A DNA stretch of 13,143 bases, from the IMG/VR virus record IMGVR_UViG_2917413769_000007, positions 1 to 13,143 of that record. The stretch is one strand, 5' to 3'. This stretch comes from a virus. Its lineage: Duplodnaviria > Heunggongvirae > Uroviricota > Caudoviricetes. The position numbers and the translations under genes are program-made. Below the pieces are notes generated by a model that was not told the origin of the DNA, searched no databases, and was given only the letters and a program-made list of their open reading frames with translations. Shown one piece after another: positions 127 to 13,143 of the stretch (positions are counted from its first letter, which is position 1; every line of letters begins with the position of its first letter).

Positions 127-429
127 TATGGCTAGTGGGATAAAGCTGCGGGTGCCCGGCGTCTGAAAAAAAAGCCTGCAAACAGGTCATAAATATTCTC
201 CCTGATTATGGGGTTGATTGTCACTTACAGGGAGGTATTTTCCTCCCCGGACGCAGGTAAAGATCATATAGCTTCAGATTCGCTGCGTTATTGAACCATA
301 CTGAACGCAGCATACCAGTGCAAGCAAGGTATAGAAAATTTGCTGTGAGCATCTCGAAGTGAAGTTAAGGAGTTGTTTATAGGATAGGCACCTCCGGCAG
401 CCATTATCGAAACATAGACTACCGGAGAG

Positions 430-560: not shown

Positions 561-830
561 CTACGCCTCCGACAAATCAGGCCAGCTAACATGTTCAGGG
601 TCGGTTGTAACATCAACCGACTTAACCTTATTCTTATAATTCAGCCAGGCCGACAGTTTTGCTCTGCCGGTGTCGCTGATTTCCCCCAGCATTAACTCTG
701 TGCGCCAGTCGAGCATAGCTGCATCTGCATGGACCAGCAGTTGCTGGCGAACCCGGTTGGCGGCAGCAATCGATGCGGCATTTTTCGCTTCAGTATTCGT
801 GACCCATTTCTCAACCAGTTGTTTATCCAC
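561..830 (-). pseudogene. Tail fiber assembly protein (Tfa) C-terminal domain, probable remnant
   Basis: 89-aa ORF with GTG start; ending LSAWLNYKNKVKSVDVTTDPEHVSWPDLSEA matches from memory the lambda/P2 Tfa C-terminus ([28 protein letters not shown]). Sits right after replication genes with no tail genes in between. Confidence 0.45.
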
Positions 831-1071
831 CAGATCCCCCTTCGTGCTGCTGCCGCCAATAATTCAAACGTTGTCTGAAAAACTCCCGATAACTCTCCGG
901 CGTCGCGTCAATGTGCTGAATAACAGTCTGGCGAGTAACTTTACGCTCATAGAGCTGACGAACGAGCGCAGCGGCGCGCATGTCGTAATGCTCTTTGAGT
1001 TGGCACTCTTGTGGCCATTTTGCACGATTGAGCGGGAGACCGGGCGGGAGGTAATCCGATTGCCCGGCCAT
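823..1071 (-). CDS. Hypothetical protein (82 aa); possibly the upstream part of a frameshifted tfa-like gene
   Basis: ORF with ATG at 1071..1069; contains YLPPGLPLN resembling the YIPPHTGLPAN motif of Tfa N-regions; ends in GGSGG at a C5/G5 homopolymer (836..840) where the next ORF begins in another frame. Confidence 0.35.
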   Translation of the reverse strand: MAGQSDYLPPGLPLNRAKWPQECQLKEHYDMRAAALVRQLYERKVTRQTVIQHIDATPESYREFFRQRLNYWRQQHEGGSGG

Positions 1072-1074
1072 GCC

Positions 1075-1755
1075 TTAAGTCCTCATGTTTTTCTCTGAGT
1101 GAACGTAGAAACGGGGATCAACGCTTTTCAGCGTGAAGTGTGTAACGGGCATGTCGTCATGCCGCTCGATGCCAACAAAGTTAGACATGCAAAGCGCAAA
1201 GACGCGTTTCTGAAGTTGATCCAGGCTTATTTTGATGTCCGGGTAATATTTTTTGATCGCAGACATGATCCCCTGATATGAGAGCGTTTTACCCTTCATA
1301 ATCGCCACAAGGTGTTCCGCCGGCAGTTCGCTGGATTTTTGGGTTAATTGGGATTCAGTGGGATTCTCAATGGGTTTTATGGTATCCAACAGCAGACAAC
1401 AGCGGCTGGTAATACCTACCCTATAGCCCGTTTTTTTGTCGTAATTCTCTTTGCTTCCGGAAGTCCATACAGTTGCTGTTTCGCGAAGTTTTACTGTCTT
1501 CTCTCCACCTGAATAAATAACGGTTCCCGTATGCGTCTTACTGAAACACCGTGGGTTGGTTTCAACAGGTTTTGATTTTTTAGTTTTTTTGGCCGCGCGA
1601 GCAGTTAATCCCGGAACAGGTACTGGGCGCGGGCAAGGCACATAAACTGAACGGCTGCGAGCCCTAGCACCTGCGTTCATCCGCCAGATGATTACGTTTG
1701 TCCAGTCACAGGCATCGTCATCTGTCGCTACTTTAGGATAAATTAAATCGGTCAT
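1075..1755 (-). CDS. Hypothetical protein (226 aa from ATG 1755)
   Basis: Long ORF after the helicase; ATG at 1755..1753 is preceded on the coding strand by GAGGAAAGACCA (complement of 1757..1767). The ORF-track start at 1779 is a GTG without that RBS. No family recognised. Confidence 0.5.
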   Translation of the reverse strand: MTDLIYPKVATDDDACDWTNVIIWRMNAGARARSRSVYVPCPRPVPVPGLTARAAKKTKKSKPVETNPRCFSKTHTGTVIYSGGEKTVKLRETATVWTSGSKENYDKKTGYRVGITSRCCLLLDTIKPIENPTESQLTQKSSELPAEHLVAIMKGKTLSYQGIMSAIKKYYPDIKISLDQLQKRVFALCMSNFVGIERHDDMPVTHFTLKSVDPRFYVHSEKNMRT

Positions 1756-1793
1756 TGGTCTTTCCTCATTGTATTTCACGCTGGTCAGGCGTT

Positions 1794-3182
1794 TTAGAAT
1801 GCGTCGGTGTTGTACTTCTCTGCATACTTCCGTTGCTGTTTTCTGGGTTTTGCTGCCTCCAGTTGAATACGGGTCTTCTCTTTGCCGACGAGCTGATCGA
1901 TTGGCAGAAAGTGACCGTTTTTAAATTCCTGATAAACCACAGTACCAGCAGCCGCAAACCGGCATTTGCCGAGAATGACCTCAGCCACACCAGCCGCCGG
2001 GCTTTCAGGGTTATAAACTTCATCGCGGTACAGAAACAGGATGCTGTCAGCGTCCTGCTCGATGGAACCAGAATCACGCAGGTCTGACATTACCGGGCGA
2101 CGCTGCGCCGCCGGACGCGTATCAACCGCGCGGGAAAGCTGGCTGAGCGCAAAGGTCGGTGTATGTAGCCGCATAGCCATCGTTTTGAGATTGCGGGAAA
2201 TGTGCGCTACGGCAAGGTCGTTACGCTCTGCTTTCGGTTTCTTAATCAGGCCGAGATAGTCGACCATGATCATTGCCAGATGCGGATGGCGTCGCTTGTG
2301 TGTCTCCGCGATAGCGCGGATCTGTTCGACTGTGAGATCGGTCGCATCGACAATCCAGATGTCCCTGTCTGTAAGTTCTCCAATGGCTGCGGTCAATCTC
2401 GCCCAGTCCTCGTCGTACATGTCCTGAGGATTACGCAGGCGAGAAACGGACAAGTTTCCGGCACCAGCTAGCGAACGTTCAACAATCTGAGCCGCCGCCA
2501 TTTCCATGCTGAAAATCAACGCGCCGCCGCCCTTTGCCGTCACACCTTCAACGACGGTAAGCGCAAACTCTGTTTTACCCATGCCTGGGCGACCAGCCAC
2601 GACAATAAGATCCTGCGGGTTAATACTGCCTGTTGCGTTATCAAGATCCGCAATACCAGTCAGCAAATTGCGCGTGGATTCGTCACCGTCCATACGTTTC
2701 TGTACTGTGTCCATGTAAGCGGGCAAAAGCTCGTTGATGTGTACCGGCTGAACGTCGCCACTATCAGCAGTCATGTCCAGCAGCTGCGCCACTGCATTTT
2801 CGACCACTTGATCTCGTTGCTCCTGGTTGGCAGCTTTGCGGATGCCGTCAGCGCCATCCTGCAGAAGTTTCGCCAGCGCGCGGCTGCGCCAGGCCTTAAC
2901 CATCTTCCCGGCATACCCTTTCAGGTTCGGCACCGTTGCGGGGATACGGGATATTTCAGACAGGTCAGCCAGACTTGAACCGCCCAGCGCTTCGCTGATG
3001 AATAACATGTCGATCATGCCGTTAGTCAGCGCCTGTTTTTTTATCTCGCTGAATGTACGGCGATGAAAACCAATGCTGAATGATTCTTCTGGCGTGGAGG
3101 CGATCACGTCAAATGCGTCAGGAGAAGCACCGCCATTCAACAGGCCAGCCAGCACACACGCTTCCAGTTCCTGAGGATTCAT
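1794..3182 (-). CDS. Replicative DNA helicase, DnaB family (phage-encoded)
   Basis: 462-aa ORF; Walker A GRPGMGKT followed by other DnaB-like C-terminal-domain sequence (IVVAGRPGMGKTEFAL, SMEM, MIMVDYLGLI, SQLSR); start ATG overlaps the upstream gene stop as ATGA (3182..3179). Confidence 0.9.
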   Translation of the reverse strand: MNPQELEACVLAGLLNGGASPDAFDVIASTPEESFSIGFHRRTFSEIKKQALTNGMIDMLFISEALGGSSLADLSEISRIPATVPNLKGYAGKMVKAWRSRALAKLLQDGADGIRKAANQEQRDQVVENAVAQLLDMTADSGDVQPVHINELLPAYMDTVQKRMDGDESTRNLLTGIADLDNATGSINPQDLIVVAGRPGMGKTEFALTVVEGVTAKGGGALIFSMEMAAAQIVERSLAGAGNLSVSRLRNPQDMYDEDWARLTAAIGELTDRDIWIVDATDLTVEQIRAIAETHKRRHPHLAMIMVDYLGLIKKPKAERNDLAVAHISRNLKTMAMRLHTPTFALSQLSRAVDTRPAAQRRPVMSDLRDSGSIEQDADSILFLYRDEVYNPESPAAGVAEVILGKCRFAAAGTVVYQEFKNGHFLPIDQLVGKEKTRIQLEAAKPRKQQRKYAEKYNTDAF

Positions 3183-4432
3183 AATGCCTCTTCCCTGGTT
3201 TTACGCAGTGTTTCGGGTTTCATGAGATAATCAAAACTGGCACGCCAGCCGTCGTGATGCTCGCCACCGAAATAAAATTCAGGAGCGGTGTTGCGAAATT
3301 TCTCAAGGTATCCCAGAAACGCGCCTGTAGTTTTATTGATCATGTGGGCTGCGAGGCGTGTAATCATCTGGCGGCGATCGGCGTCCAGGGTTGCAGCAGG
3401 TAGCACATCAGCAAAAATTTCGTTGTAAGCATCGACTACCGCAACCGGATCAATACTGGCTTCGGTGGTGGCCCATGCCTCAGCGTCAGCCAGATAACCA
3501 TCGAAGCGGCATACTCGACAGATATTTGCCGGTTTAGGGAGGCTGTCACCCCGGCGGCGCCAGGTAGCCAGTACCCAACGAATAACTAACTGAACATCAT
3601 CCAGCGTATAGCCGTCTCGGGTAGTCGTAGGGGTCATAAGCGCCAGGAACGGCTTCATGTCACGGCAGCGAGTACCGGTTTGCACATTGTAAAAATCTAG
3701 TGCTTTTTTAGCATCTGCAAGGATTTGTTCGCGGGAAATATTAGCAACCGAGGATGTTTCTGGATGCGCACCAATCACAGTGATCCCGTCAAATTCGTAG
3801 CGTTCTGTAATTACGCCATCTCTGACCAGAATAAAGCCATCACTAAGCTGTTTTAATTTTGTTATGGATTTATCCCGCACGTTGATTCGATCAATTTCAA
3901 TACCGCATTGTTCACCATCGCTTCCAGTTACTAGTAAATCAACGCGGCCTCTGCGACCGTTACCACGATCAGCTACCGGGTATTCGCGCTGGCAGTCAAA
4001 GCCTGCACCAACAATCGCAGACTCAACAGCATCGTGAAGCTCACCTGCTTTTTCAAAATCAAATTTACCTTCGAGAAGGGAAATCAGTTGCTCACGCAAT
4101 ACATGTCCGCCAACTCTCCCAACGGGAGATTTAGAGGGATATATATTCTCTGTAGTAATCTCTGTATGAATATTTGCTGGTTTTCCACTTACTTGTCTGG
4201 TGGTTTTCCGCACTCCAGTATGTGTTTTTTCCGCATTCTTGTTTGCGGCTATAAGTACCTGATATAAAAACGTCATTATCAACCTTGTAGAAAAGTCGAG
4301 CAGGAACACCTTTTCGTTTTTCCAGCAGTACACCAATTGAGCGAAGTTTTTTACGCGCCCCTTCCTGCTCATAGCGAGAAAGGCCTGTTTCTTCTTCCCA
4401 TTCTTCTTGGGTTTTATATACCCACCCGTCAT
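3179..4432 (-). CDS. Replication initiator (O-like), downstream frame: central nuclease-fold-like segment plus conserved phage replication C-terminal domain
   Basis: C-terminal 170 aa (GYTLDDVQLVIRWVLATWRRRGD...EFYFGGEHHDGWRASFDYL) resemble the conserved C-terminal domain of phage replication initiators, by recollection. The first ~50 codons of the tracked ORF are out-of-frame translation of the N-terminal domain; likely continuation of 4131..4556 across a frameshift. Confidence 0.65.
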   Translation of the reverse strand: MTGGYIKPKKNGKKKQAFLAMSRKGRVKNFAQLVYCWKNEKVFLLDFSTRLIMTFLYQVLIAANKNAEKTHTGVRKTTRQVSGKPANIHTEITTENIYPSKSPVGRVGGHVLREQLISLLEGKFDFEKAGELHDAVESAIVGAGFDCQREYPVADRGNGRRGRVDLLVTGSDGEQCGIEIDRINVRDKSITKLKQLSDGFILVRDGVITERYEFDGITVIGAHPETSSVANISREQILADAKKALDFYNVQTGTRCRDMKPFLALMTPTTTRDGYTLDDVQLVIRWVLATWRRRGDSLPKPANICRVCRFDGYLADAEAWATTEASIDPVAVVDAYNEIFADVLPAATLDADRRQMITRLAAHMINKTTGAFLGYLEKFRNTAPEFYFGGEHHDGWRASFDYLMKPETLRKTREEAL

Positions 4433-4556
4433 CGTCGGATCGGTTAGTCCAGTAGGTCATTTGTGAAAGAAAAAGCGAGGCAGTAACACCAATATTCAGG
4501 CGAATAAAACTACGCTGGAAGGCGATCGGCCTGTCGAGTAGTGGGAGTATATTCAT
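4131..4556 (-). CDS. Replication initiator (O-like), N-terminal replisome-organizer/DNA-binding domain (upstream frame)
   Basis: Motif MTYWTNRSDDDGWVYKTQEEWEEETGLSRYEQEGARKKLRSIGVLLEKRKGVPARLFYKVD, typical of phage replisome-organizer N-domains by recollection; ATG at 4556..4554 sits 2 nt after the upstream gene's stop; sequence degrades after FYKVD. Confidence 0.65.
   Translation of the reverse strand: MNILPLLDRPIAFQRSFIRLNIGVTASLFLSQMTYWTNRSDDDGWVYKTQEEWEEETGLSRYEQEGARKKLRSIGVLLEKRKGVPARLFYKVDNDVFISGTYSRKQECGKNTYWSAENHQTSKWKTSKYSYRDYYREYISL
4147..4235. repeat. Candidate replication-origin iterons inside the O-like gene
   Basis: Direct repeats GGTTTTCCACT (4179..4189), GGTTTTCCGCAC (4202..4213), TTTTTCCGCAT (4226..4236) at about 23-bp spacing, plus TCTCTGTA twice (4147..4154, 4159..4166), next to an AT-rich stretch (4255..4280). 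Confidence 0.4.
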
Positions 4557-4805: not shown

Positions 4806-5252
4806 TTAAACGCTGGTCAGGCGCTGTGTTTCCTGTATGGCTTGTAATGCCTGCGCTATACGCTGGGGTCGATCCCTTGCTTCAAGCAACAGAGCAATAA
4901 TCGCCGCGGCAAAATCACGAATCGCAATGCAAATTAACTGCTGAGTGGTCATTCCCAGCTGTGCATATCGTTCCGCAGGCAACGCAGCTTCCATCGCCAT
5001 GGCCAGCGCTTTCGTTTTGATTCTTGCCGCTTTCGTCTCACCACGTAGCCAGCGAAAAATCTGCTGCCGGTTGTTGTTGATAGCCCGCCAGTCAGCATTA
5101 CCTTTCGAATCCTCCATCGGGTGAAGTTTTACGTAGCTGGTATTGCCACCCATTCGAAACCACATGCGAGTGATCTCAATAGCAACATGTTCCTGGCCAC
5201 GCTCAGCAGCCCAGTTGAAGATTTCTCTTTTCAGTTCGTCGAGGTTTTCCAC
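4806..5252 (-). CDS. ydaT: YdaT-like protein (Rac-prophage YdaT family)
   Basis: 148-aa ORF with GTG start and AGGAG 10 nt upstream; segment WRAINNNRQQIFRWLRGETKAARIKTKAL matches my recollection of YdaT; located directly downstream of the Cro-like gene as in Rac. Confidence 0.7.
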   Translation of the reverse strand: MENLDELKREIFNWAAERGQEHVAIEITRMWFRMGGNTSYVKLHPMEDSKGNADWRAINNNRQQIFRWLRGETKAARIKTKALAMAMEAALPAERYAQLGMTTQQLICIAIRDFAAAIIALLLEARDRPQRIAQALQAIQETQRLTSV

Positions 5253-5316: not shown

Positions 5317-5517
5317 TTAAGCTGCAGTTGTGTTGTTCGGTTCCAGATAAAATTCGGGGTCATATTTCAAAGCCCCATCAGTAACACGATCCAACCTTGC
5401 AGCTCGGCGCTCAGGTATCACATTTCCCCAGCGAGATACTGCTGGAAGTGAAACTCCTGCGGCTCGAGCCAGCTTTGTGGCGCTCCCAAAGAACGCTAAA
5501 GCATCGTTTTTAAACAT
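5317..5517 (-). CDS. dicC: Cro-like HTH regulator, DicC/YdaS family
   Basis: 66 aa, MFKNDALAFFGSATKLARAAGVSLPAVSRWGNVIPERRAARLDRVTDGALKYDP, matches DicC/YdaS pattern from memory; divergent from the repressor gene; SD GGAG 7 nt upstream of ATG. Confidence 0.8.
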   Translation of the reverse strand: MFKNDALAFFGSATKLARAAGVSLPAVSRWGNVIPERRAARLDRVTDGALKYDPEFYLEPNNTTAA

Positions 5518-5598: not shown

Positions 5599-6009
5599 AT
5601 GAACAAAATCAGCCCTGGCGAGCGCATTAAAAAGCGACGTAAAGAACTCAACCTAACTCAGCGTGAAGTCGCAAAACTCGCGCAGGTATCGCACGTCACA
5701 ATCTCTAAATGGGAAAACGATGACAACGAGCCTCAGGGCAGGAACTTGTTCCAGTTGAGTCAGGCCCTGCAATGTTCACCCACCTGGATTTTATACGGGG
5801 ACGAAGACAAACAGCCCGAGCCTCCAGCAGTATCTGAAGAAGATAAGATCACATTAGATGAGCTTGAAGAGCAGCTACTCGAGCTTTTCAGGGCACTACC
5901 CAGTTCAGAAAAAGAACGCCATTTAACTGAGCTTCGCGGAAAAGTGGACGATTTTAATCGTCTGTTTTACGAATTGCTCCAAGCAAGAAAAACCTCCAAG
6001 AAAAAATAA
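5599..6009 (+). CDS. dicA: HTH (XRE-family) repressor, DicA-like
   Basis: 136 aa; HTH segment LTQREVAKLAQVSHVTISKWEN; LQCSPTWILYGDEDKQP and LLELFRALPSSEKE match my recollection of E. coli DicA; no peptidase S24 domain. Confidence 0.9.
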   Translation: MNKISPGERIKKRRKELNLTQREVAKLAQVSHVTISKWENDDNEPQGRNLFQLSQALQCSPTWILYGDEDKQPEPPAVSEEDKITLDELEEQLLELFRALPSSEKERHLTELRGKVDDFNRLFYELLQARKTSKKK

Positions 6010-7600: not shown

Positions 7601-7695
7601 TCAACCGGCGCCAGACCAGCGCCAGTAACCAAAGAGGAAAGACCAAGTGACAATTTATAACTGTCTGTTCGAGCCGAAGAAATCTGCTATCAAGG

Positions 7696-9918
7696 ATGGT
7701 GCTGTTGCATTGGCAATCAGCATCGAAGCGCCAAATAAAAAAAGTCGCTGAAAGTATCATCATCGGCAAACTCTGGGAGCATTATCCTGCAAATGGCGAC
7801 AACTATTTTAAACCTAAAATCTGGGAAGATTCAGAGGGCCAGCCTCGTCCGGAAGTCGGAAAATTTGATGAGCAATTTGCTCAGGCGAACACATTAGACG
7901 GGGAAAAGTGGATCGCCAACGATTCAGACACCAGTACTTTAAATTTGCCAGCCAACGACGAGATAATCGATCTGACGAAGCTGCCAGCTCGTGAACGCTT
8001 CATTGCCATTCTTATGTTCAGTGATTCCCCCATTGACGGTGTACTGTACTCTCAGGTGCTGGATTATCTTGATAATCTGGAAAATAGCCACGAGCCGTTT
8101 GATGATGACGATCGGCTGAATTCTAATATTCTTCATGCCCTGGAAAATAACGAACCCGTTCGTCACATGCATGTTGAGGGGGTAAACAATCTGATTCAGG
8201 CCATCTTCGCTAAATTTGAAGGCCAGGCACCGGGTAAGGCAGCAATTTCACAGTTCATTAAACGCTGGATGGAAAATCCTCGTAAGCGTGAAGAAATGCG
8301 GCCGGAAAATACCGCATTGAATAATGATGGTGTCAACAATGACAGTAACAAAGTAGCACCACAGCGCGGATATAAGCATTCTTATGCCACACTGGATCAG
8401 GAAATTGCCCTCGCCCTTCTCCCGATTAATTTCACAGAAACAGTATCAGTTCGTGCGCTACGATCTGCTGAACACATCATTGAAGAAGACCGAGAAGATT
8501 TCAAACGCTGGTCAGCGGCACTACGTACGACAGAGCAGATCCTGAAGTATGACCGCCCCAGTGTTTTTGGCGTTATTCAGAATGCACCTGCTAAAGATAC
8601 ATACCATTTCCCTGAGTCACTGCGGCACCATATTGATTCCTGGCTGGCTGAAAATGGTCAGTTCGAGTGTGCTGGTACTGATGCGGAGAGAACCAGCAAA
8701 CTGCTTGCGGCAGAGCGCGGCGAGTACGTCGAAGGTATCAGCGACCCTAACGATCCTAAATGGGTTAAAACAGATTCCCAACCTCAGGTATCAAACCTCG
8801 GCAATGGAATGTTCTCTGTTGATAATCTTCTGCCTGAAACCGCCTCAAAGGAAGGTGAAAAACAGGAAGTGACCGAACAAGGAACTGTTACAGAAGACCA
8901 GGCAACACAGGCCCGAGAAAAGTTGAACAGCATGGGTTACGGCGTTTATGCAACGAACCATGACGAAACTGACCAGCAGGAAGAAAAGCTGAGCGATAAA
9001 GTAAAAACTCTCGTTCAGGATGCGGATCAACTTGTCGAGCGCGTTAAACGTGAAGAGCAGCTCCCGCAGGCATCTGAACTGGTTCAGAGCATCAACGAAA
9101 TGCAGTCTACTGAACGCGATAACCTGGAATTGTGGAAAGAGGTGTTCAAAACAGATGAGCGTTTTACTACTGCGTTCTCTGTGAATGGCGGCGGAACCTC
9201 AATCAATGGCACCTACATGACCATGATCGCTACCCGCGAATTTGGTCCGAAAGGTATCGGCTGGGGTGTGGATATTCTTGAAGAACGCTTTGACGATGGC
9301 GCGCCAATTACTCGCGCAGTCAAAGGGACTGACGGTAACAATACATGGGAGTTTATTCCCGACGGTGTAGGCGGCATCCTGACAGAGAAACACCACGTTA
9401 TCAAAATCAGACTTTGGTACATCCGGAATGGTGCGCGCGGTGAAGAGATTTCATTCGGGTGTACCCCGTATATTTACGGCAGCAAATACGGCCCTATTTG
9501 CGATGGTGAAGCGACAAAAAAATCACTGACTGACGCAACCAAAAAAGCGCTGTCTGCACTTGGTTTCTGCGCTGATATTTTCATGGGCCTGTACGATAAC
9601 CCGGAGTATCGCCAGAAAAATAAAGCAGAATTCGCGCTCAAAAACGCCAGCGAAAACGCCGAGGATGCCGCCCGCGTACGTCAGGAACTGGACGACAAAC
9701 TGACCCGAGTCGCTAACACCATTGCATCTGCTGTATCAGAGCACGAGATCAACAAGGTCTATTCTTCGATTGCTCGCGAAGCGGAGGTGCATCGCAAGGA
9801 TGCAGAGGCGAAAGGTGACACACAGCATGCCCGTTACTTAGGTGGGCGTCTGCGTCGCCTGACAACTATCAAAGATGGACGTATCGCCGAACTGAAAAAA
9901 GTACAGGAGAAAGCATAA
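7696..9918 (+). CDS. Large protein with C-terminal Erf/Rad52-like single-strand annealing domain and ~470-aa unknown N-terminal region
   Basis: 740-codon ORF; residues ~480-640 (EATKKSLTDATKKALSALGFCADIFMGLYD) match the Erf (GATSSYARKYCLNGLFGIDD) and Rad52 helix motifs from memory; tracked ATG 7696 has no usable SD; see frameshift finding. Confidence 0.8.
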   Translation: MVLLHWQSASKRQIKKVAESIIIGKLWEHYPANGDNYFKPKIWEDSEGQPRPEVGKFDEQFAQANTLDGEKWIANDSDTSTLNLPANDEIIDLTKLPARERFIAILMFSDSPIDGVLYSQVLDYLDNLENSHEPFDDDDRLNSNILHALENNEPVRHMHVEGVNNLIQAIFAKFEGQAPGKAAISQFIKRWMENPRKREEMRPENTALNNDGVNNDSNKVAPQRGYKHSYATLDQEIALALLPINFTETVSVRALRSAEHIIEEDREDFKRWSAALRTTEQILKYDRPSVFGVIQNAPAKDTYHFPESLRHHIDSWLAENGQFECAGTDAERTSKLLAAERGEYVEGISDPNDPKWVKTDSQPQVSNLGNGMFSVDNLLPETASKEGEKQEVTEQGTVTEDQATQAREKLNSMGYGVYATNHDETDQQEEKLSDKVKTLVQDADQLVERVKREEQLPQASELVQSINEMQSTERDNLELWKEVFKTDERFTTAFSVNGGGTSINGTYMTMIATREFGPKGIGWGVDILEERFDDGAPITRAVKGTDGNNTWEFIPDGVGGILTEKHHVIKIRLWYIRNGARGEEISFGCTPYIYGSKYGPICDGEATKKSLTDATKKALSALGFCADIFMGLYDNPEYRQKNKAEFALKNASENAEDAARVRQELDDKLTRVANTIASAVSEHEINKVYSSIAREAEVHRKDAEAKGDTQHARYLGGRLRRLTTIKDGRIAELKKVQEKA

Positions 9919-11093: not shown

Positions 11094-12113
11094 ATGGGGC
11101 GCAGAAGAAAGGATCCGGGTGATAACAGGTTACCCCCGCGCGTATCAAAAACCAGAACTCGTTACTACTACAAACCCACCTCGCGGGAGACCGTGACGCT
11201 TGGACCAATCACCTTCACTATGTCGGCGTTATGGAAACGGTACGAAGAAGAGCGACGCAATTATTCAGATGTGATGACGTTCGAAAAGCTCTGGAAGATG
11301 TTTCTTAAAAGCGCCTACTACACCGAGCTTGCAATACGAACCCAGCGGGATTACCTGCAACATCAGAAAAAACTACTTGTCGTATTCGGTAAAGTTAAAG
11401 CTGATTTAATCAAACCGGAAGACGTTCGTCAGTTTATGGATCGTCGTGGCCTACAAAGTAAAAATCAGGCTAACCAGGAAATGAGCAGTATGTCGCGTGT
11501 TTACCGCTGGGGATACGAACGCGGTTACGTTAAGGGAAACCCGTGCGCCGGCGTCAGTAAATTCTCTCTCAAGGCCCGCGAGCAATACATCACTGACGAA
11601 GACTACCTGGCGATTTATAAACATGCAGATCACGTCGTCAGGGCAGCAATGGAAATATCGTACCTGTGCGCAGCCCGGCAAGCTGATGTACTCGCTCTGC
11701 GCTGGATGCAGATATCTGACAAGGGGATTTTTATCCAGCAGGGTAAGACAGGGAAAAAGCAAATTAAGGTGTGGACGCCCCGCCTTCGGCAGGCGCTGGA
11801 AACGGCACAGACAGAATGCCCGAGGCTCTCACCTGATTCACTGGTTATCTATAACAACGATCGTGCTCAGTTCATCCGCAAGACGTTCAATAATCGCTGG
11901 CTAAAGGCCGTACGTGCCGCACAAAGCGAACTGGGCCGGCAACTGGATTACACGTTTCACGATATAAAGGCAAAAGCCATTTCAGATTTTGAGGGGAGTA
12001 GCAGGGATAAGCAGATATTTAGCGGTCACAAAACAGAAAGTCAGGTGCTTATCTACGACAGAAAGGTGCAAATCAGTCCGACGCTGGATCGTCCTTTGAT
12101 AAATGGCCAGTAG
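11094..12113 (+). CDS. int: Tyrosine recombinase / phage integrase
   Basis: 339 aa; alignable by eye to lambda Int catalytic region: AARQADVLALRW (Arg-I), QQGKTGKK (Lys), TFHDIKAKAISDF (His box), FSGHKTESQVLIYDRK (His-II and Tyr). Confidence 0.9.
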   Translation: MGRRRKDPGDNRLPPRVSKTRTRYYYKPTSRETVTLGPITFTMSALWKRYEEERRNYSDVMTFEKLWKMFLKSAYYTELAIRTQRDYLQHQKKLLVVFGKVKADLIKPEDVRQFMDRRGLQSKNQANQEMSSMSRVYRWGYERGYVKGNPCAGVSKFSLKAREQYITDEDYLAIYKHADHVVRAAMEISYLCAARQADVLALRWMQISDKGIFIQQGKTGKKQIKVWTPRLRQALETAQTECPRLSPDSLVIYNNDRAQFIRKTFNNRWLKAVRAAQSELGRQLDYTFHDIKAKAISDFEGSSRDKQIFSGHKTESQVLIYDRKVQISPTLDRPLINGQ

Positions 12114-12357: not shown

Positions 12358-13143
12358 ATGACCAATCAACTCATCCCCGTTTTCAACGGCACGATATCCA
12401 ACGACCCCCACCTGCTCTGCAATGCCCGCGATCTGCACGCCTTCCTCGAAGTAGGCAAGCGCTTCGCTACTTGGATTACTGACCGACTAAACGAGTATCA
12501 ATTCGTTGAAAATCAGGACTACATAGCTATTTCCCAAAAACGGGAAATAGGTCATGGGCGTGGCCGCAAGGACTTCTACATCACCCTGGACACCGCCAAG
12601 GAACTGGCGATGGTTGAGCGCAACGAAAAAGGCCGCCAGATCCGCCGATACTTCATTGAGTGCGAGAAGCAACTCAGTCAGAACAAAGAATCAATTGTCC
12701 TGACCACTCCGATGCATCGAACGCCACTACGTGACGCCGTTCACCTTCTTGTCGGTATGCGCTGCATGGCATTTCAGGAAGCCTATCAGCTTATCCACCA
12801 GCGCTTTGGCGTCGGTAGTATTGAACAACTCACCCGCGCACAAGTGATGGATGCCATAGAGTACATTCATTGTCTGTTAGCAGACGGGGCAACAGGGAAA
12901 CTCCCCTCCGGCGAAAGCAGAATATTAATCACCCTTCGAAATGGAGAAATAATCAAGACAAGGGCCATTGGAGCTGATGAGCATGTCGCAACGCTGGAGG
13001 CTTTTATCGAACTGGCGAGAAGTGCGCATTACATTGTCATCCACAAGGATGGTGCAGCGCCATTGATGAAGGCATTAACAGGAGGGAGATCTGAGGAAGG
13101 CAAAAGACACAAACTGAATAATTATTCAGTTTGCGATTTCTGA
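12358..13143 (+). CDS. antA: Phage antirepressor, AntA-type N-terminal domain with C-terminal extension
   Basis: 261 aa; ARDLHAFLEVGKRFATWITDRLNEYQFVENQDYIAI and DFYITLDTAKELAMVERNEKGRQIRRYFIECEKQL match the AntA domain from memory; SD AAGGA 9 nt upstream; stop at the last three bases of the window. Confidence 0.8.
   Translation: MTNQLIPVFNGTISNDPHLLCNARDLHAFLEVGKRFATWITDRLNEYQFVENQDYIAISQKREIGHGRGRKDFYITLDTAKELAMVERNEKGRQIRRYFIECEKQLSQNKESIVLTTPMHRTPLRDAVHLLVGMRCMAFQEAYQLIHQRFGVGSIEQLTRAQVMDAIEYIHCLLADGATGKLPSGESRILITLRNGEIIKTRAIGADEHVATLEAFIELARSAHYIVIHKDGAAPLMKALTGGRSEEGKRHKLNNYSVCDF

What the first reader, a model, noticed from the sequence alone, without database searches (positions are those of the whole stretch)
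3179..4556. O-like replication initiator split by a frameshift at a T5/A5 run, with a possible nuclease-fold insert between its two conserved domains
The N-terminal replisome-organizer domain reads in one frame (4131..4556) and loses sense right after LFYKVD. The adjacent frame (3179..4432) becomes protein-like at the same point (TFLYQVLIAANKNAEKTH...). The switch falls at the A5 run 4266..4270 inside the AT-rich part of the candidate origin. Between the two domains lie about 130 residues (GFDCQREYPVADRGNGRRGRVDLLVTGSDGEQCGIEIDRINVRDKSITKLKQLSDGFILVR) that resemble a PD-(D/E)xK / DUF559-Vsr-like endonuclease fold, which is not a standard part of O-like proteins.
Basis: partly seen in the sequence, partly recalled or inferred. 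Interest (0 to 1): 0.6.

Follow-up and report, generated by a model that had tools for sequence, protein, structure and literature searches.

The report
Phage initiator gene, false frameshift, nuclease-fold insert
The apparent split of this prophage replication-initiator gene is almost certainly an Ion Torrent homopolymer error, but the gene does carry a real, uncharacterised nuclease-fold domain between its origin-binding and helicase-recruiting halves.

Summary
The sequence is as described. A minus-strand initiator gene (4556..3179) changes frame at a T5 run (4266..4270), and about 128 residues lie between its two conserved domains.

The frameshift is not biological. The window comes from Escherichia sp. 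E1130, assembly PDIL01, which was sequenced on Ion Torrent. A second assembly of the same strain has no substitutions over 10.2 kb and differs only by three one-base deletions, all in T/A runs. An independent SRA-read assembly also has T4 at this run. With T4 the gene is one 458-aa ORF, and it is 100% identical to my one-base repair.

The insert is real:
- The AlphaFold2 model has pLDDT 90.7.
- It is not detectably DUF559/Vsr, and not HNH, which is NCBI's name for the protein.
- The family has at least 320 clusters with near-invariant E, D, ExD and R-KS-K residues.

The domain occurs in the linker of several different phage initiator families. It also occurs free-standing as the first gene of helicase-primase modules in Fels-1 and Stx2a phages. 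Most RepO alleles lack it. Its function is untested. My best inference is an origin-tethered DNA endonuclease, and a selfish homing domain is the main rival.

The parts
3179..4556 (-). RepO-type (lambda-O-like) replication initiator gene. It is one 458-aa ORF once a single T of the 4266..4270 run is removed.
   Evidence: The repaired product is 100% identical to WP_138211499.1 from a second assembly of the same strain. phrog_1347 matches it end to end (E 1.5e-208).
4266..4270 (-). T5 homopolymer (A5 on the + strand) carrying one spurious extra base. This is the apparent frameshift site.
   Evidence: T4 in E. coli RepO, in P0001/P0007-type loci, in the second E1130 assembly L015 and in the Logan assembly L017. 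The window's assembly is Ion Torrent.
4226..4556 (-). N-terminal winged-helix origin-binding domain (residues 1-110). The false frameshift falls at residue 96/97, just after the wing.
   Evidence: phrog_9773 'replication initiation O-like', residues 3-134. The AF2 model of the 91%-identical P0001 has helices plus a two-strand wing at residues 17-111 with pLDDT 82-94.
4106..4225 (-). Disordered inter-domain linker (residues 111-150), whose DNA carries the candidate origin repeats.
   Evidence: pLDDT 26-33 for residues 111-151 of the P0001 model. GC is 0.35-0.43 here.
4179..4234 (-). Three iteron-like direct repeats G(C/T)GGAAAA(A)(A/C)C at 23-nt spacing (4234, 4211, 4188), followed by a tandem TACAGAGA pair. 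This is the candidate origin inside the gene.
   Evidence: two exact copies here, 0.12 matches per window expected by chance; the third copy is read from the sequence. Tandem pair: family D2. The repeats are conserved with the matching N-terminal domain and replaced in the P0006 allele, which has a different N-terminal domain. Origin function is inferred.
3752..4105 (-). Inserted PD-(D/E)xK-fold domain (residues 151-268). Conserved residues are E191, D206, E220-x-D222, R227, K229, S230, K233 and R245. Position 199 is N where the family has D.
3182..3730 (-). C-terminal helical domain (residues 276-458), presumed to recruit the helicase.
   Evidence: phrog_428 'replication initiation protein' at residues 275-455 (E 7.8e-58) and phrog_345. 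All-helical in the model. The recruiting role is inferred by analogy with lambda O.
1794..3182 (-). DnaB-type replicative helicase gene. Its ATG overlaps the initiator's TGA (ATGA).
   Evidence: Pfam DnaB_C at 1.1e-70 and DnaB at 3.8e-08. Overlap read from the sequence.

Best explanation
The window encodes one intact 458-aa RepO-type replication initiator of a lambdoid prophage of Escherichia sp. E1130. The apparent split is a +1 homopolymer over-call (T5 for T4) in an Ion Torrent draft assembly. It is not a pseudogene and not recoding.

The protein has three folded parts on a flexible string:
- an N-terminal winged-helix domain that presumably binds the iteron-like repeats lying inside its own gene;
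- a disordered linker encoded by that origin DNA;
- a C-terminal helical domain coupled to a DnaB-type helicase gene.

A compact PD-(D/E)xK (restriction-endonuclease-like) domain of about 115 residues is inserted in frame directly after the linker. It belongs to a widespread, unnamed family. The family is found in the same inter-domain position of several different phage initiator families. It is also found free-standing as the first gene of helicase-primase replication modules.

Steps shown here: the artefact, the domain boundaries, the fold, the residue conservation and the distribution.

Steps inferred:
- The domain is an active metal-dependent DNA endonuclease, with D206, E220 and D222 as a BamHI-like acidic site, plus E191 and K229/K233.
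- The N-terminal domain holds it at the origin, where it nicks or cuts DNA structures in the service of replication. It could create or process an entry or restart site, or convert theta to rolling-circle replication.
- It is an optional accessory, because most RepO alleles lack it and one natural allele has deleted it cleanly.
For: Artefact:
- The exact 141-aa N-terminal fragment is on record on a single contig.
- Strain and assembly were identified as Escherichia sp. E1130, PDIL01.
- A second assembly of the same strain encodes a 458-aa protein 100% identical to the one-base repair.
- Window versus that assembly: 10,184 nt, no mismatches, three 1-nt gaps. All three are an extra T in T7, T5 and T8 runs of the window, and each breaks a gene.
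- A Logan read assembly also has T4.
- PDIL00000000 was sequenced on Ion Torrent (PMC6639607).
- All intact homologues have T4.

Initiator identity: PHROG matches, gene order cro-ydaT-x-repO-dnaB, ATGA overlap with dnaB, and the domain layout of the model.

Fold.

Family and conservation:
- 320 representatives at 50% identity with E <= 1e-3.
- E42, D57, E71, D73, R78, K80, S81, K84 and R96 (domain numbering) are each kept in 163-180 of 182 sequences, in both embedded and free-standing forms.

Link to replication modules:
- Host proteins carry HTH_36, Phage_rep_O, DnaD/DnaB_2-like, DUF1376, Lin1244_N or DUF6291 N-terminal domains.
- Free-standing copies sit between cro and the helicase-primase genes in Fels-1 and in about 95 Stx-converting phages. 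In phage ArgO145 the copy overlaps the helicase start.
- The isolated Providencia phage PSTCR7lys has the domain inside its O protein.

Optional nature:
- More than 100 of the 120 best hits are 330-aa alleles without the insert.
- The P0007 allele equals P0001 minus a 339-nt deletion between TGGCG(G/C)GCAT repeats.
Against: - No reads were examined directly. A genuine mutation in the culture used for the PDIL assembly cannot be formally excluded.
- The canonical lysine of the (D/E)xK motif is an aspartate (ExD), so catalysis is not guaranteed.
- This allele has N199 where 165 of 182 family members have D.
- No biochemical or genetic data exist for any family member, in the literature I could search.
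- Patchy presence among near-identical RepO alleles fits a selfish mobile domain as well as a replication accessory. So does an unrelated HNH insert in the same linker of other alleles. So does the insert being better conserved than its host domains.
Confidence: 0.8

Rival explanations
1. The insert is a selfish, in-frame homing-endonuclease-type domain without an intein. It is tolerated because it sits in a disordered linker. It uses the initiator's own origin-binding domain to reach insert-less alleles, cuts them next to the origin, and is copied in by repair.
For: - Presence or absence varies among RepO alleles with 80-98% identical flanks.
- A second, unrelated nuclease domain (HNH, PF01844) is inserted elsewhere in the same linker in P0006 and P0098.
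- The insert is better conserved than its hosts. It lies in proteins with no detectable similarity to RepO in 86 of 100 cases.
- The insertion point is directly beside the iteron-like repeats.
- In-frame HNH fusions to lambdoid phage genes have a precedent: epsilon34 gene 31 (PMC2629481).
- PD-(D/E)xK homing endonucleases are known (from my own knowledge: I-Ssp6803I).
Against: - Free-standing homologues keep one syntenic place (cro - X - helicase - primase) in Fels-1, Klebsiella phages and about 95 Stx phages, with translational overlap to the helicase. That looks like a stably retained module member.
- In every host the domain is in the same inter-domain position, whatever the flanking sequence. 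A sequence-specific homing site would not predict this.
- No target site, co-conversion tract or empty-site cleavage was shown.
Confidence: 0.25
2. The frameshift is a genuine mutation. The initiator is a pseudogene in a decaying prophage of the sequenced culture.
For: - The deposited sequence has T5.
- NCBI annotated two separate proteins of 141 and 306 aa.
- The late region next to the replication module is rearranged, with a truncated tail-fibre assembly gene at 561..830.
Against: - Two other assemblies have T4.
- The only differences from the sister assembly are three +1 errors in T/A runs, including one in the host gene doxX. There is no substitution in 10.2 kb.
- The platform is Ion Torrent.
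- The rest of the gene shows no decay; it is 100% identical to the intact allele.
Confidence: 0.07
3. The T5 run is a programmed recoding site (+1 ribosomal frameshift or transcriptional slippage). It would yield a short N-terminal protein and a full-length initiator.
For: The shift lies at a homopolymer at a domain boundary, and both frames are protein-like on the appropriate side.
Against: - Every intact homologue, and the same strain's other assembly, have T4 in a single frame.
- Restoring the frame needs +1, not the common -1.
- Five T is far shorter than the runs known to give efficient polymerase slippage (established knowledge).
- No conserved stimulatory element was found.
Confidence: 0.01
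4. The domain keeps the nuclease fold but is non-catalytic. It would serve as a dimerisation or DNA-structure-binding module that helps assemble the initiator complex at the origin.
For: - The motif lysine is replaced (ExD), and this allele has N199 for the family's D.
Against: - Four acidic residues and two lysines are near-invariant across 182 diverged sequences. This is the pattern of an active site.
Confidence: 0.15

Closest known systems
Lambda O / enterobacterial 'RepO' prophage initiators (330-aa alleles, e.g. WP_268100297.1 of E. coli 23GD11002)
   Same: - Same N-terminal and C-terminal domains; the N-terminal part is 88.9% identical at DNA level.
- Same gene order: cro, ydaT, small ORF, repO, dnaB.
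- Candidate origin repeats lie inside the gene, in the linker-coding part.
- The stop codon overlaps the helicase start.
   Different: - About 128 extra residues forming a nuclease-fold domain sit between the linker and the C-terminal domain.
- The N-terminal domain does not match Pfam Phage_rep_O (PF04492), so it is O-like in role and layout, not a lambda O orthologue.
- The partner is a DnaB-type helicase, not a lambda-P-type loader.
PD-(D/E)xK nucleases NucS (2vld), AF1548 (1y88, Mrr-like), BamHI (1bam), Bax1 and Hjc
   Same: - Core alpha-beta-beta-beta-alpha-beta fold.
- An acidic residue at the start of strand 2 and an ExX motif on strand 3.
   Different: - Sequence identity is only 13-21%.
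- The third motif position is Asp, as in BamHI's Glu113, not Lys.
- The family has its own signature, DRGDGRxGRxD ... ExD ... PRxKSxxKL.
- No substrate is known.
Free-standing homologues: Salmonella phage Fels-1 STM0899, Klebsiella phage KPP5665-2 GP40, Stx2a-phage gp36 (e.g. ArgO145 H3H23_gp36), Escherichia phage phi191 A0A096XEN5
   Same: - Same domain family, 38-42% identical over 90% of the domain.
- Foldseek E 1.3e-09, TM 0.74 to the phi191 protein.
- Same D / ExD / R-(K/R)S-KL residues.
- Located in the early-right replication module.
   Different: - They are separate proteins of about 120 aa placed upstream of an SF2 helicase and a P4-type primase, not fused to an origin-binding protein.
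- The DRGDG loop and E191 equivalent are degenerate in this subgroup.
RepO alleles with an HNH insert (Salmonella P0006, 562 aa; Klebsiella pasteurii P0098, 436 aa) and other in-frame HNH fusions in lambdoid phages (epsilon34 gene 31)
   Same: A nuclease domain is inserted in frame in the inter-domain region of the same initiator family. P0006 carries both inserts.
   Different: - Different fold (HNH, PF01844).
- Different insertion point: before the repeats rather than after them.
- The window's protein has no HNH domain, although NCBI calls it 'HNH endonuclease'.

Membership tests
Lambda-O-like / RepO prophage replication initiators | Sequence membership in an annotated initiator family | tested here: met
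   phrog_9773 'replication initiation O-like' (residues 3-134, E 2.6e-47). phrog_428 (275-455, E 7.8e-58). phrog_345. It is 72-81% identical, over the best local match (about 40% of the query), to proteins that NCBI names RepO.
Lambda-O-like / RepO prophage replication initiators | Pfam Phage_rep_O (PF04492) N-terminal domain, i.e. true lambda O orthology | tested here: not met
   No Pfam hit at E <= 10 on the repaired protein. Some other hosts of the insert (P0120, P0121) do carry PF04492.
Lambda-O-like / RepO prophage replication initiators | Position in a lambdoid early-right operon, directly upstream of and coupled to a helicase or loader gene | tested here: met
   The order cI, cro, ydaT, 74-aa ORF, repO, dnaB is seen in the window and in five related loci. 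ATGA overlap with dnaB.
Lambda-O-like / RepO prophage replication initiators | Origin (iterons plus an AT-rich stretch) inside the gene, bound by the N-terminal domain | tested here: inconclusive
   Three repeats at 23-nt spacing and a GC dip are present. The repeats co-vary with the N-terminal domain. Binding and origin activity cannot be tested here.
PD-(D/E)xK (restriction-endonuclease-like) superfamily | Alpha-beta-beta-beta-alpha-beta core fold | tested here: met
PD-(D/E)xK (restriction-endonuclease-like) superfamily | Catalytic D ... (D/E)xK motif on strands 2 and 3 | tested here: inconclusive
   D206 lies on strand 2 and E220-I-D222 on strand 3. The Lys position holds Asp, as Glu does in BamHI. 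K229 and K233 on the next helix are near-invariant. I could not inspect the active-site geometry in the model.
PD-(D/E)xK (restriction-endonuclease-like) superfamily | Metal-dependent phosphodiester cleavage | not testable with these tools
   This needs biochemistry.
HNH endonuclease (NCBI's name for the intact protein) | HNH / beta-beta-alpha-Me domain | tested here: not met
   No PF01844 or HNH_5 hit in the window's protein. The HNH segment of P0006/P0098 aligns to a gap in the window's protein.
Homing endonuclease / intein-type mobile insertion | Sporadic presence in otherwise near-identical host genes | tested here: met
   Alleles of 330, 342 and 456-458 aa have 80-98% identical flanks.
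Homing endonuclease / intein-type mobile insertion | Intein splicing domain (Hint), or cleavage of the empty allele followed by copying of the insert | tested here: not met
   No Hint or intein Pfam hit. The model shows a plain nuclease domain. Cleavage and homing themselves cannot be tested here.
Programmed frameshift | The shift site is conserved in relatives and reproducible in the same organism | tested here: not met
   T4 and a single frame in all homologues and in two other assemblies of the same sequence.

The most novel reading that the evidence does not exclude
The conserved PD-(D/E)xK domain is a previously unrecognised component of phage replication initiation. It would be an origin-tethered endonuclease that nicks or cuts origin DNA or early replication intermediates. 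That could load the helicase, restart forks, or switch theta to rolling-circle replication. It is fused into O-like initiators of several families, and it acts as a separate first gene in the helicase-primase modules of Fels-1 and many Stx2a-converting phages, for which this analysis found no annotated origin-binding protein.
Probability: 0.25. Interest if true: 0.7.

Novelty: new variant of a known kind. Interest (0 to 1): 0.4.

Why it matters
The frameshift does not matter biologically. It is a reminder that homopolymer indels in Ion Torrent drafts create false pseudogenes. Three occur in this 13-kb window.

The insert is of moderate interest. Theta-type, lambda-O-like initiators are not known to carry nuclease activity. 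Here a strongly conserved nuclease-fold domain recurs in the linker of several different initiator families. It also heads the helicase-primase replication modules of medically relevant Stx2a phages.

- If it is active at the origin, it would add a DNA-cutting step to lambdoid replication, or explain how those modules start.
- If it is a homing domain, it would be an unusual case of an intein-less nuclease borrowing its host protein's DNA-binding domain.

Either reading can be tested directly. The result also corrects a widespread database name: these proteins are labelled 'HNH endonuclease' but have no HNH domain.

Tried and rejected
- Direct family searches with the insert alone found nothing useful: Pfam, NCBIfam, PADLOC and PDB sequences. 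Only family-level scans and structure comparison revealed the fold.
- The search for homologous proteins with a minus-strand DNA reference for the insert returned nothing. This was probably a tool quirk, and one of the three searches was lost. The alignment query recovered only 33 proteins.
- Megablast of the gene against phage genomes found nothing. Against complete E. coli genomes only one N-terminal match appeared.
- P0305 could not be looked up directly. The sister assembly was reached through the neighbouring DnaB protein instead.
- The AFDB Foldseek library was unavailable.
- Literature searches for a nuclease domain in O-like initiators, and for the second assembly's accession, found nothing relevant. 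One search had an invalid term.
- Intein: rejected. There is no Hint domain and the model is a plain nuclease domain.
- Programmed +1 frameshift or transcriptional slippage: rejected, because homologues and the sister assemblies have T4.
- Decayed prophage remnant as an explanation of a pseudogene: dropped. The frameshift is an artefact. The sister assembly also shows tail genes 2 kb further on in inverted orientation, so the state of the prophage is unresolved.
- Contexts of free-standing copies in metagenomic phage-like contigs of about 39 kb were looked at but gave no functional clue.
Full report
**1. The observation**

On the minus strand an ATG at 4556 opens a frame that reads MNILPLLDRPIAFQ...GVPARLFYKVDNDV. 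It then runs into 45 residues of low-sense sequence and a stop at 4131. The +1 frame becomes protein-like at the same place and runs to the stop at 3179..3181. The two frames meet in the run TTTTT at 4270..4266.

**2. What the gene is**

- An 88.9%-identical stretch in one complete E. coli genome is annotated 'replication protein RepO', 330 aa.
- The DNA alignment shows that the window has one T more than that gene in exactly this run, T5 against T4.
- Removing one T gives a single 458-aa ORF.
- PHROG profiles match it end to end: phrog_1347, E 1.5e-208.
- The N-terminal 134 residues fall in 'replication initiation O-like' (phrog_9773). The C-terminal 180 fall in 'replication initiation protein / O-like' (phrog_428, phrog_345).
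- Pfam and NCBIfam find nothing, including Phage_rep_O.
- The surrounding genes are CI-type repressor (5599..6009, +), Cro (5517..5317), YdaT (5252..4806), a small ORF, this gene, then a DnaB-type helicase (3182..1794). The helicase ATG overlaps the initiator's TGA.

It is therefore a lambda-O-like initiator by position, layout and PHROG family. It is not a Pfam Phage_rep_O member.

**3. The frameshift is an artefact**

- The exact 141-aa fragment is on record on a single contig, PDIL01000007.1 of GCA_004745435.1. The window is the first 13,143 bases of that contig.
- The cluster look-up names the organism Escherichia sp. E1130. It also shows that the same strain has a 458-aa protein, WP_138211499.1, in another assembly.
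- That protein is 100% identical to my repair over all 458 residues.
- I reached the other assembly (GCA_005781065.1, VATL01000016.1, locus L015) and a Logan assembly of run SRR6148301 (L017) through the identical DnaB protein.
- Window versus L015 over 10,184 nt: no substitutions and three one-base gaps. Each is an extra T in a T-run of the window's minus strand, at + coordinates 7743 (T7 vs T6), 4270 (T5 vs T4) and 173 (T8 vs T7).
- Each extra base breaks a gene. One is a 756-aa YdfE_N-like gene whose true GTG start is at 7647. One is the initiator. One is the host gene doxX, whose ATG is at 190.
- L017 also has T4 in the initiator.
[quoted passage not shown] That chemistry is known for homopolymer-length errors.
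- Intact homologues at 83-91% identity read ...KVDNDVLYQ(A/V)L... in one frame, with T4 in the DNA.

I put about 0.9 on the artefact. I put about 0.07 on a genuine mutation in that culture, and about 0.01 on recoding. Recoding would need a +1 shift at a run far too short for efficient slippage, and no relative conserves it.

**4. The insert is real**

- Most relatives (more than 100 of the 120 best hits) are 330-aa RepO proteins without the central segment.
- A minority of 455-458 aa from Salmonella, Klebsiella, Kosakonia and this Escherichia carry it.
- The DNA alignment places it immediately after the linker-coding stretch...ACAGAGAATATA(G/T)ATCCCTCTAAATCTCCCGTTGGGAGAG....
- One Salmonella allele, P0007 (342 aa), is identical in DNA to the 457-aa P0001 allele except for a clean 339-nt in-frame deletion of the domain core. 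The deletion lies between TGGCGGGCAT and TGGCGCGCAT. The domain can therefore be lost by slippage without otherwise changing the gene.
- Another allele, P0006 (562 aa), has a different N-terminal domain. It carries an additional HNH (PF01844) insert before the repeats, and the same central insert. P0098 has only the HNH insert.

**5. Fold**

- An AlphaFold2 model of residues 150-272 (window 3740..4108) was built with a 39-sequence alignment. Mean pLDDT is 90.7 and pTM 0.85. The order of elements is helix, helix, three strands, helix, strand and a small hairpin.
- Foldseek against viral models gives a 128-aa protein of Escherichia phage phi191 (E 1.3e-09, TM 0.74), then assorted PD-(D/E)xK nucleases.
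- At sequence level the window's copy hits nothing. Among 34 diverse family members, 9 weakly match Pfam MTES_1575. Smaller numbers match Mrr_cat, PDDEXK_4, NucS_C and Hjc. A family profile weakly matches AF1548 (E 0.07).
- No DUF559 or Vsr signal appeared anywhere.
- A full-length model of the 91%-identical P0001 (mean pLDDT 75.5) shows four parts. They are a winged-helix domain (17-111), a disordered linker (111-151, pLDDT about 30), the nuclease-fold domain (154-264) and a helical C-terminal domain (277-451). The low pTM of 0.46 is as expected for beads on a string.

**6. The family**

- An exhaustive HMMER search with the domain found 320 cluster representatives at E <= 1e-3.
- There are two architectures. 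One is embedded at about residues 150-300 of 250-560-aa proteins. The other is free-standing at 100-140 aa.
- Embedded hosts carry various N-terminal domains: HTH_36 (14), DUF6291 (6), Lin1244_N (5), Phage_rep_O (4) and DUF1376 (4), plus DnaB_2, DnaD_N and DnaT singles. These are typical of phage and plasmid initiators and organisers.
- In 182 aligned sequences the residues E191, D206, E220, D222, R227, K229, S230, K233 and R245 (repaired-protein numbering) are each kept in 163-180 sequences, in both architectures. The window has N199 where 165 of 182 have D.
- D206 at the start of strand 2 and E220-x-D222 on strand 3 occupy the classical motif positions. An acidic residue stands in place of lysine, as in BamHI. 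This rests on established knowledge of BamHI's Asp94, Glu111 and Glu113.
- The insert is better conserved than its hosts. For P0121 it is 66% identical against 37% for the C-terminal domain. In 86 of 100 insert-bearing long proteins neither RepO flank is detectable by BLAST.

**7. Context of the free-standing form**

tblastn of the domain against phage genomes finds 103 records.

- In the isolated Providencia phage PSTCR7lys the domain lies inside the O protein.
- In Fels-1 (STM0899), phage phi467, and Klebsiella phages ST16-OXA48phi5.3 and KPP5665-2 it is free-standing. Nearly all the other records (66 of the 103 are Stx-converting phages; the remaining Escherichia, Shigella and Enterobacteria entries were not classified) show the same kind of short match.
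- In the three free-standing loci I inspected (Fels-1, KPP5665-2 and ArgO145) it lies between cro and an SF2 helicase plus a primase (P4-type in Fels-1). In ArgO145 it overlaps the helicase start by 7 nt.

In every genome inspected, fused or separate, the domain sits at or beside the head of the replication module.

**8. Candidate origin**

- Three copies of G(C/T)GGAAAA(A)(A/C)C start at 4234, 4211 and 4188 on the minus strand, 23 nt apart.
- They are followed by a tandem TACAGAGA pair and a short TCTCCC-GTT-GGGAGA palindrome, in a stretch of 35-43% GC.
- The repeats are conserved in alleles with the same N-terminal domain. They are replaced in P0006, which has a different one. That is the expected behaviour of iterons.
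- The false frameshift lies about 35 nt upstream of the first repeat. The insert begins about 70 nt downstream of the last.
- Origin function is inferred by analogy with lambda, where ori lies in the linker-coding part of O (established knowledge; see also PMC6022878, listed).

**9. Mechanism**

The parts, the fold, the conserved residues, the distribution and the optional nature are all shown here.

My preferred reading, at about 0.35-0.45, is inferred. The domain would be an active metal-dependent endonuclease held at the origin by the winged-helix domain. It would act on origin DNA or early intermediates by nicking, by structure-specific cutting as NucS and Hjc do, or by triggering the theta-to-sigma switch.

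The main rival, at about 0.25, is a selfish in-frame homing domain that exploits the tolerant linker. A non-catalytic structural role has about 0.15. The synteny of the free-standing genes and the constant inter-domain position favour a replication role. The patchy distribution, the co-occurring HNH insert and the insert's higher conservation favour mobility. I cannot decide between them with these tools.

**10. Novelty and score**

The architecture is already in databases: phrog_1347 'unknown function', and NCBI proteins misnamed 'HNH endonuclease'. I found no paper that describes it. I class it as a new variant of a known kind, an O-like initiator with an embedded PD-(D/E)xK domain. The frameshift itself is not a real feature. 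Interest is 0.4. The headline feature is an artefact, but the insert and its free-standing relatives in Stx2a phages and Fels-1 are a clean, testable lead.

Noticed in passing
window 7737..7743 (+ strand A7): This is a second +1 homopolymer error of the assembly: A7 here against A6 in the sister assembly. It cuts off the first ~31 codons of a 756-aa YdfE_N-like early-left gene whose true GTG start is at 7647. The ORF listing therefore shows only a 740-aa ORF from 7696.
   Followed up: yes
window 166..173 (+ strand A8): This is a third +1 homopolymer error: A8 against A7. It breaks the host doxX gene (ATG at 190, minus strand) at codon 8. The sister assembly has an intact 162-aa DoxX.
   Followed up: yes
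window 3179..4556; proteins WP_138211499.1, P0002, P0003, P0299-P0304: NCBI names the intact 455-458-aa proteins 'HNH endonuclease', but they contain no HNH domain. Only the 562-aa and 436-aa alleles (P0006, P0098) carry a real PF01844 insert, at another site. The name looks like transitive misannotation.
   Followed up: partly
L018:3989-4357 (Fels-1 STM0899); L019:4369-4746 (ArgO145 gp36); L004:2486-2983 (KPP5665-2 GP40): Free-standing homologues of the insert are the first gene of helicase-primase replication modules in Fels-1, in Klebsiella phages and in about 95 Stx-converting phages. In ArgO145 the gene overlaps the helicase start by 7 nt. No origin-binding protein is annotated in these modules.
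   Followed up: partly
window 561..830 (-); L015:9323-15389: An N-terminally truncated tail-fibre assembly gene (Caudo_TAP, profile positions 46-128) directly follows the replication module. Related prophages have methylase genes there. In the sister assembly, doxX and a hexapeptide-repeat gene lie between this fragment and an inverted block with a full TAP, a tail fibre and baseplate J. This may be a rearranged or invertible tail-fibre region, or two abutting prophages.
   Followed up: no
L006:3001-4029 (Salmonella, P0007) versus L005:6007-7374 (P0001): A natural allele has lost exactly the core of the nuclease-fold domain through a 339-nt in-frame deletion between the 10-nt repeats TGGCG(G/C)GCAT. 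It is otherwise identical in DNA to the 457-aa allele, and it is seen on 3 contigs.
   Followed up: partly
window 823..1071 (-) and 1075..1779 (-): Downstream of dnaB lie an 82-aa ORF with a weak DNA polymerase III theta (HolE-like) match (E 1e-4) and a 234-aa ORF with a weak late-promoter-activator match (E 7.8e-5). Both are below the Pfam cut-offs. Both genes are conserved in the related loci (there called as 226 and 82 aa).
   Followed up: no
window 12358..13143 (+): An AntA/AntB-type antirepressor gene lies beyond the integrase (11094..12113), outside the expected prophage end. It may belong to a neighbouring element.
   Followed up: no
P0130 (1312 aa): One representative protein matches the domain in 10 separate stretches. 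It looks like a tandem array of the motif region. I did not examine it.
   Followed up: no
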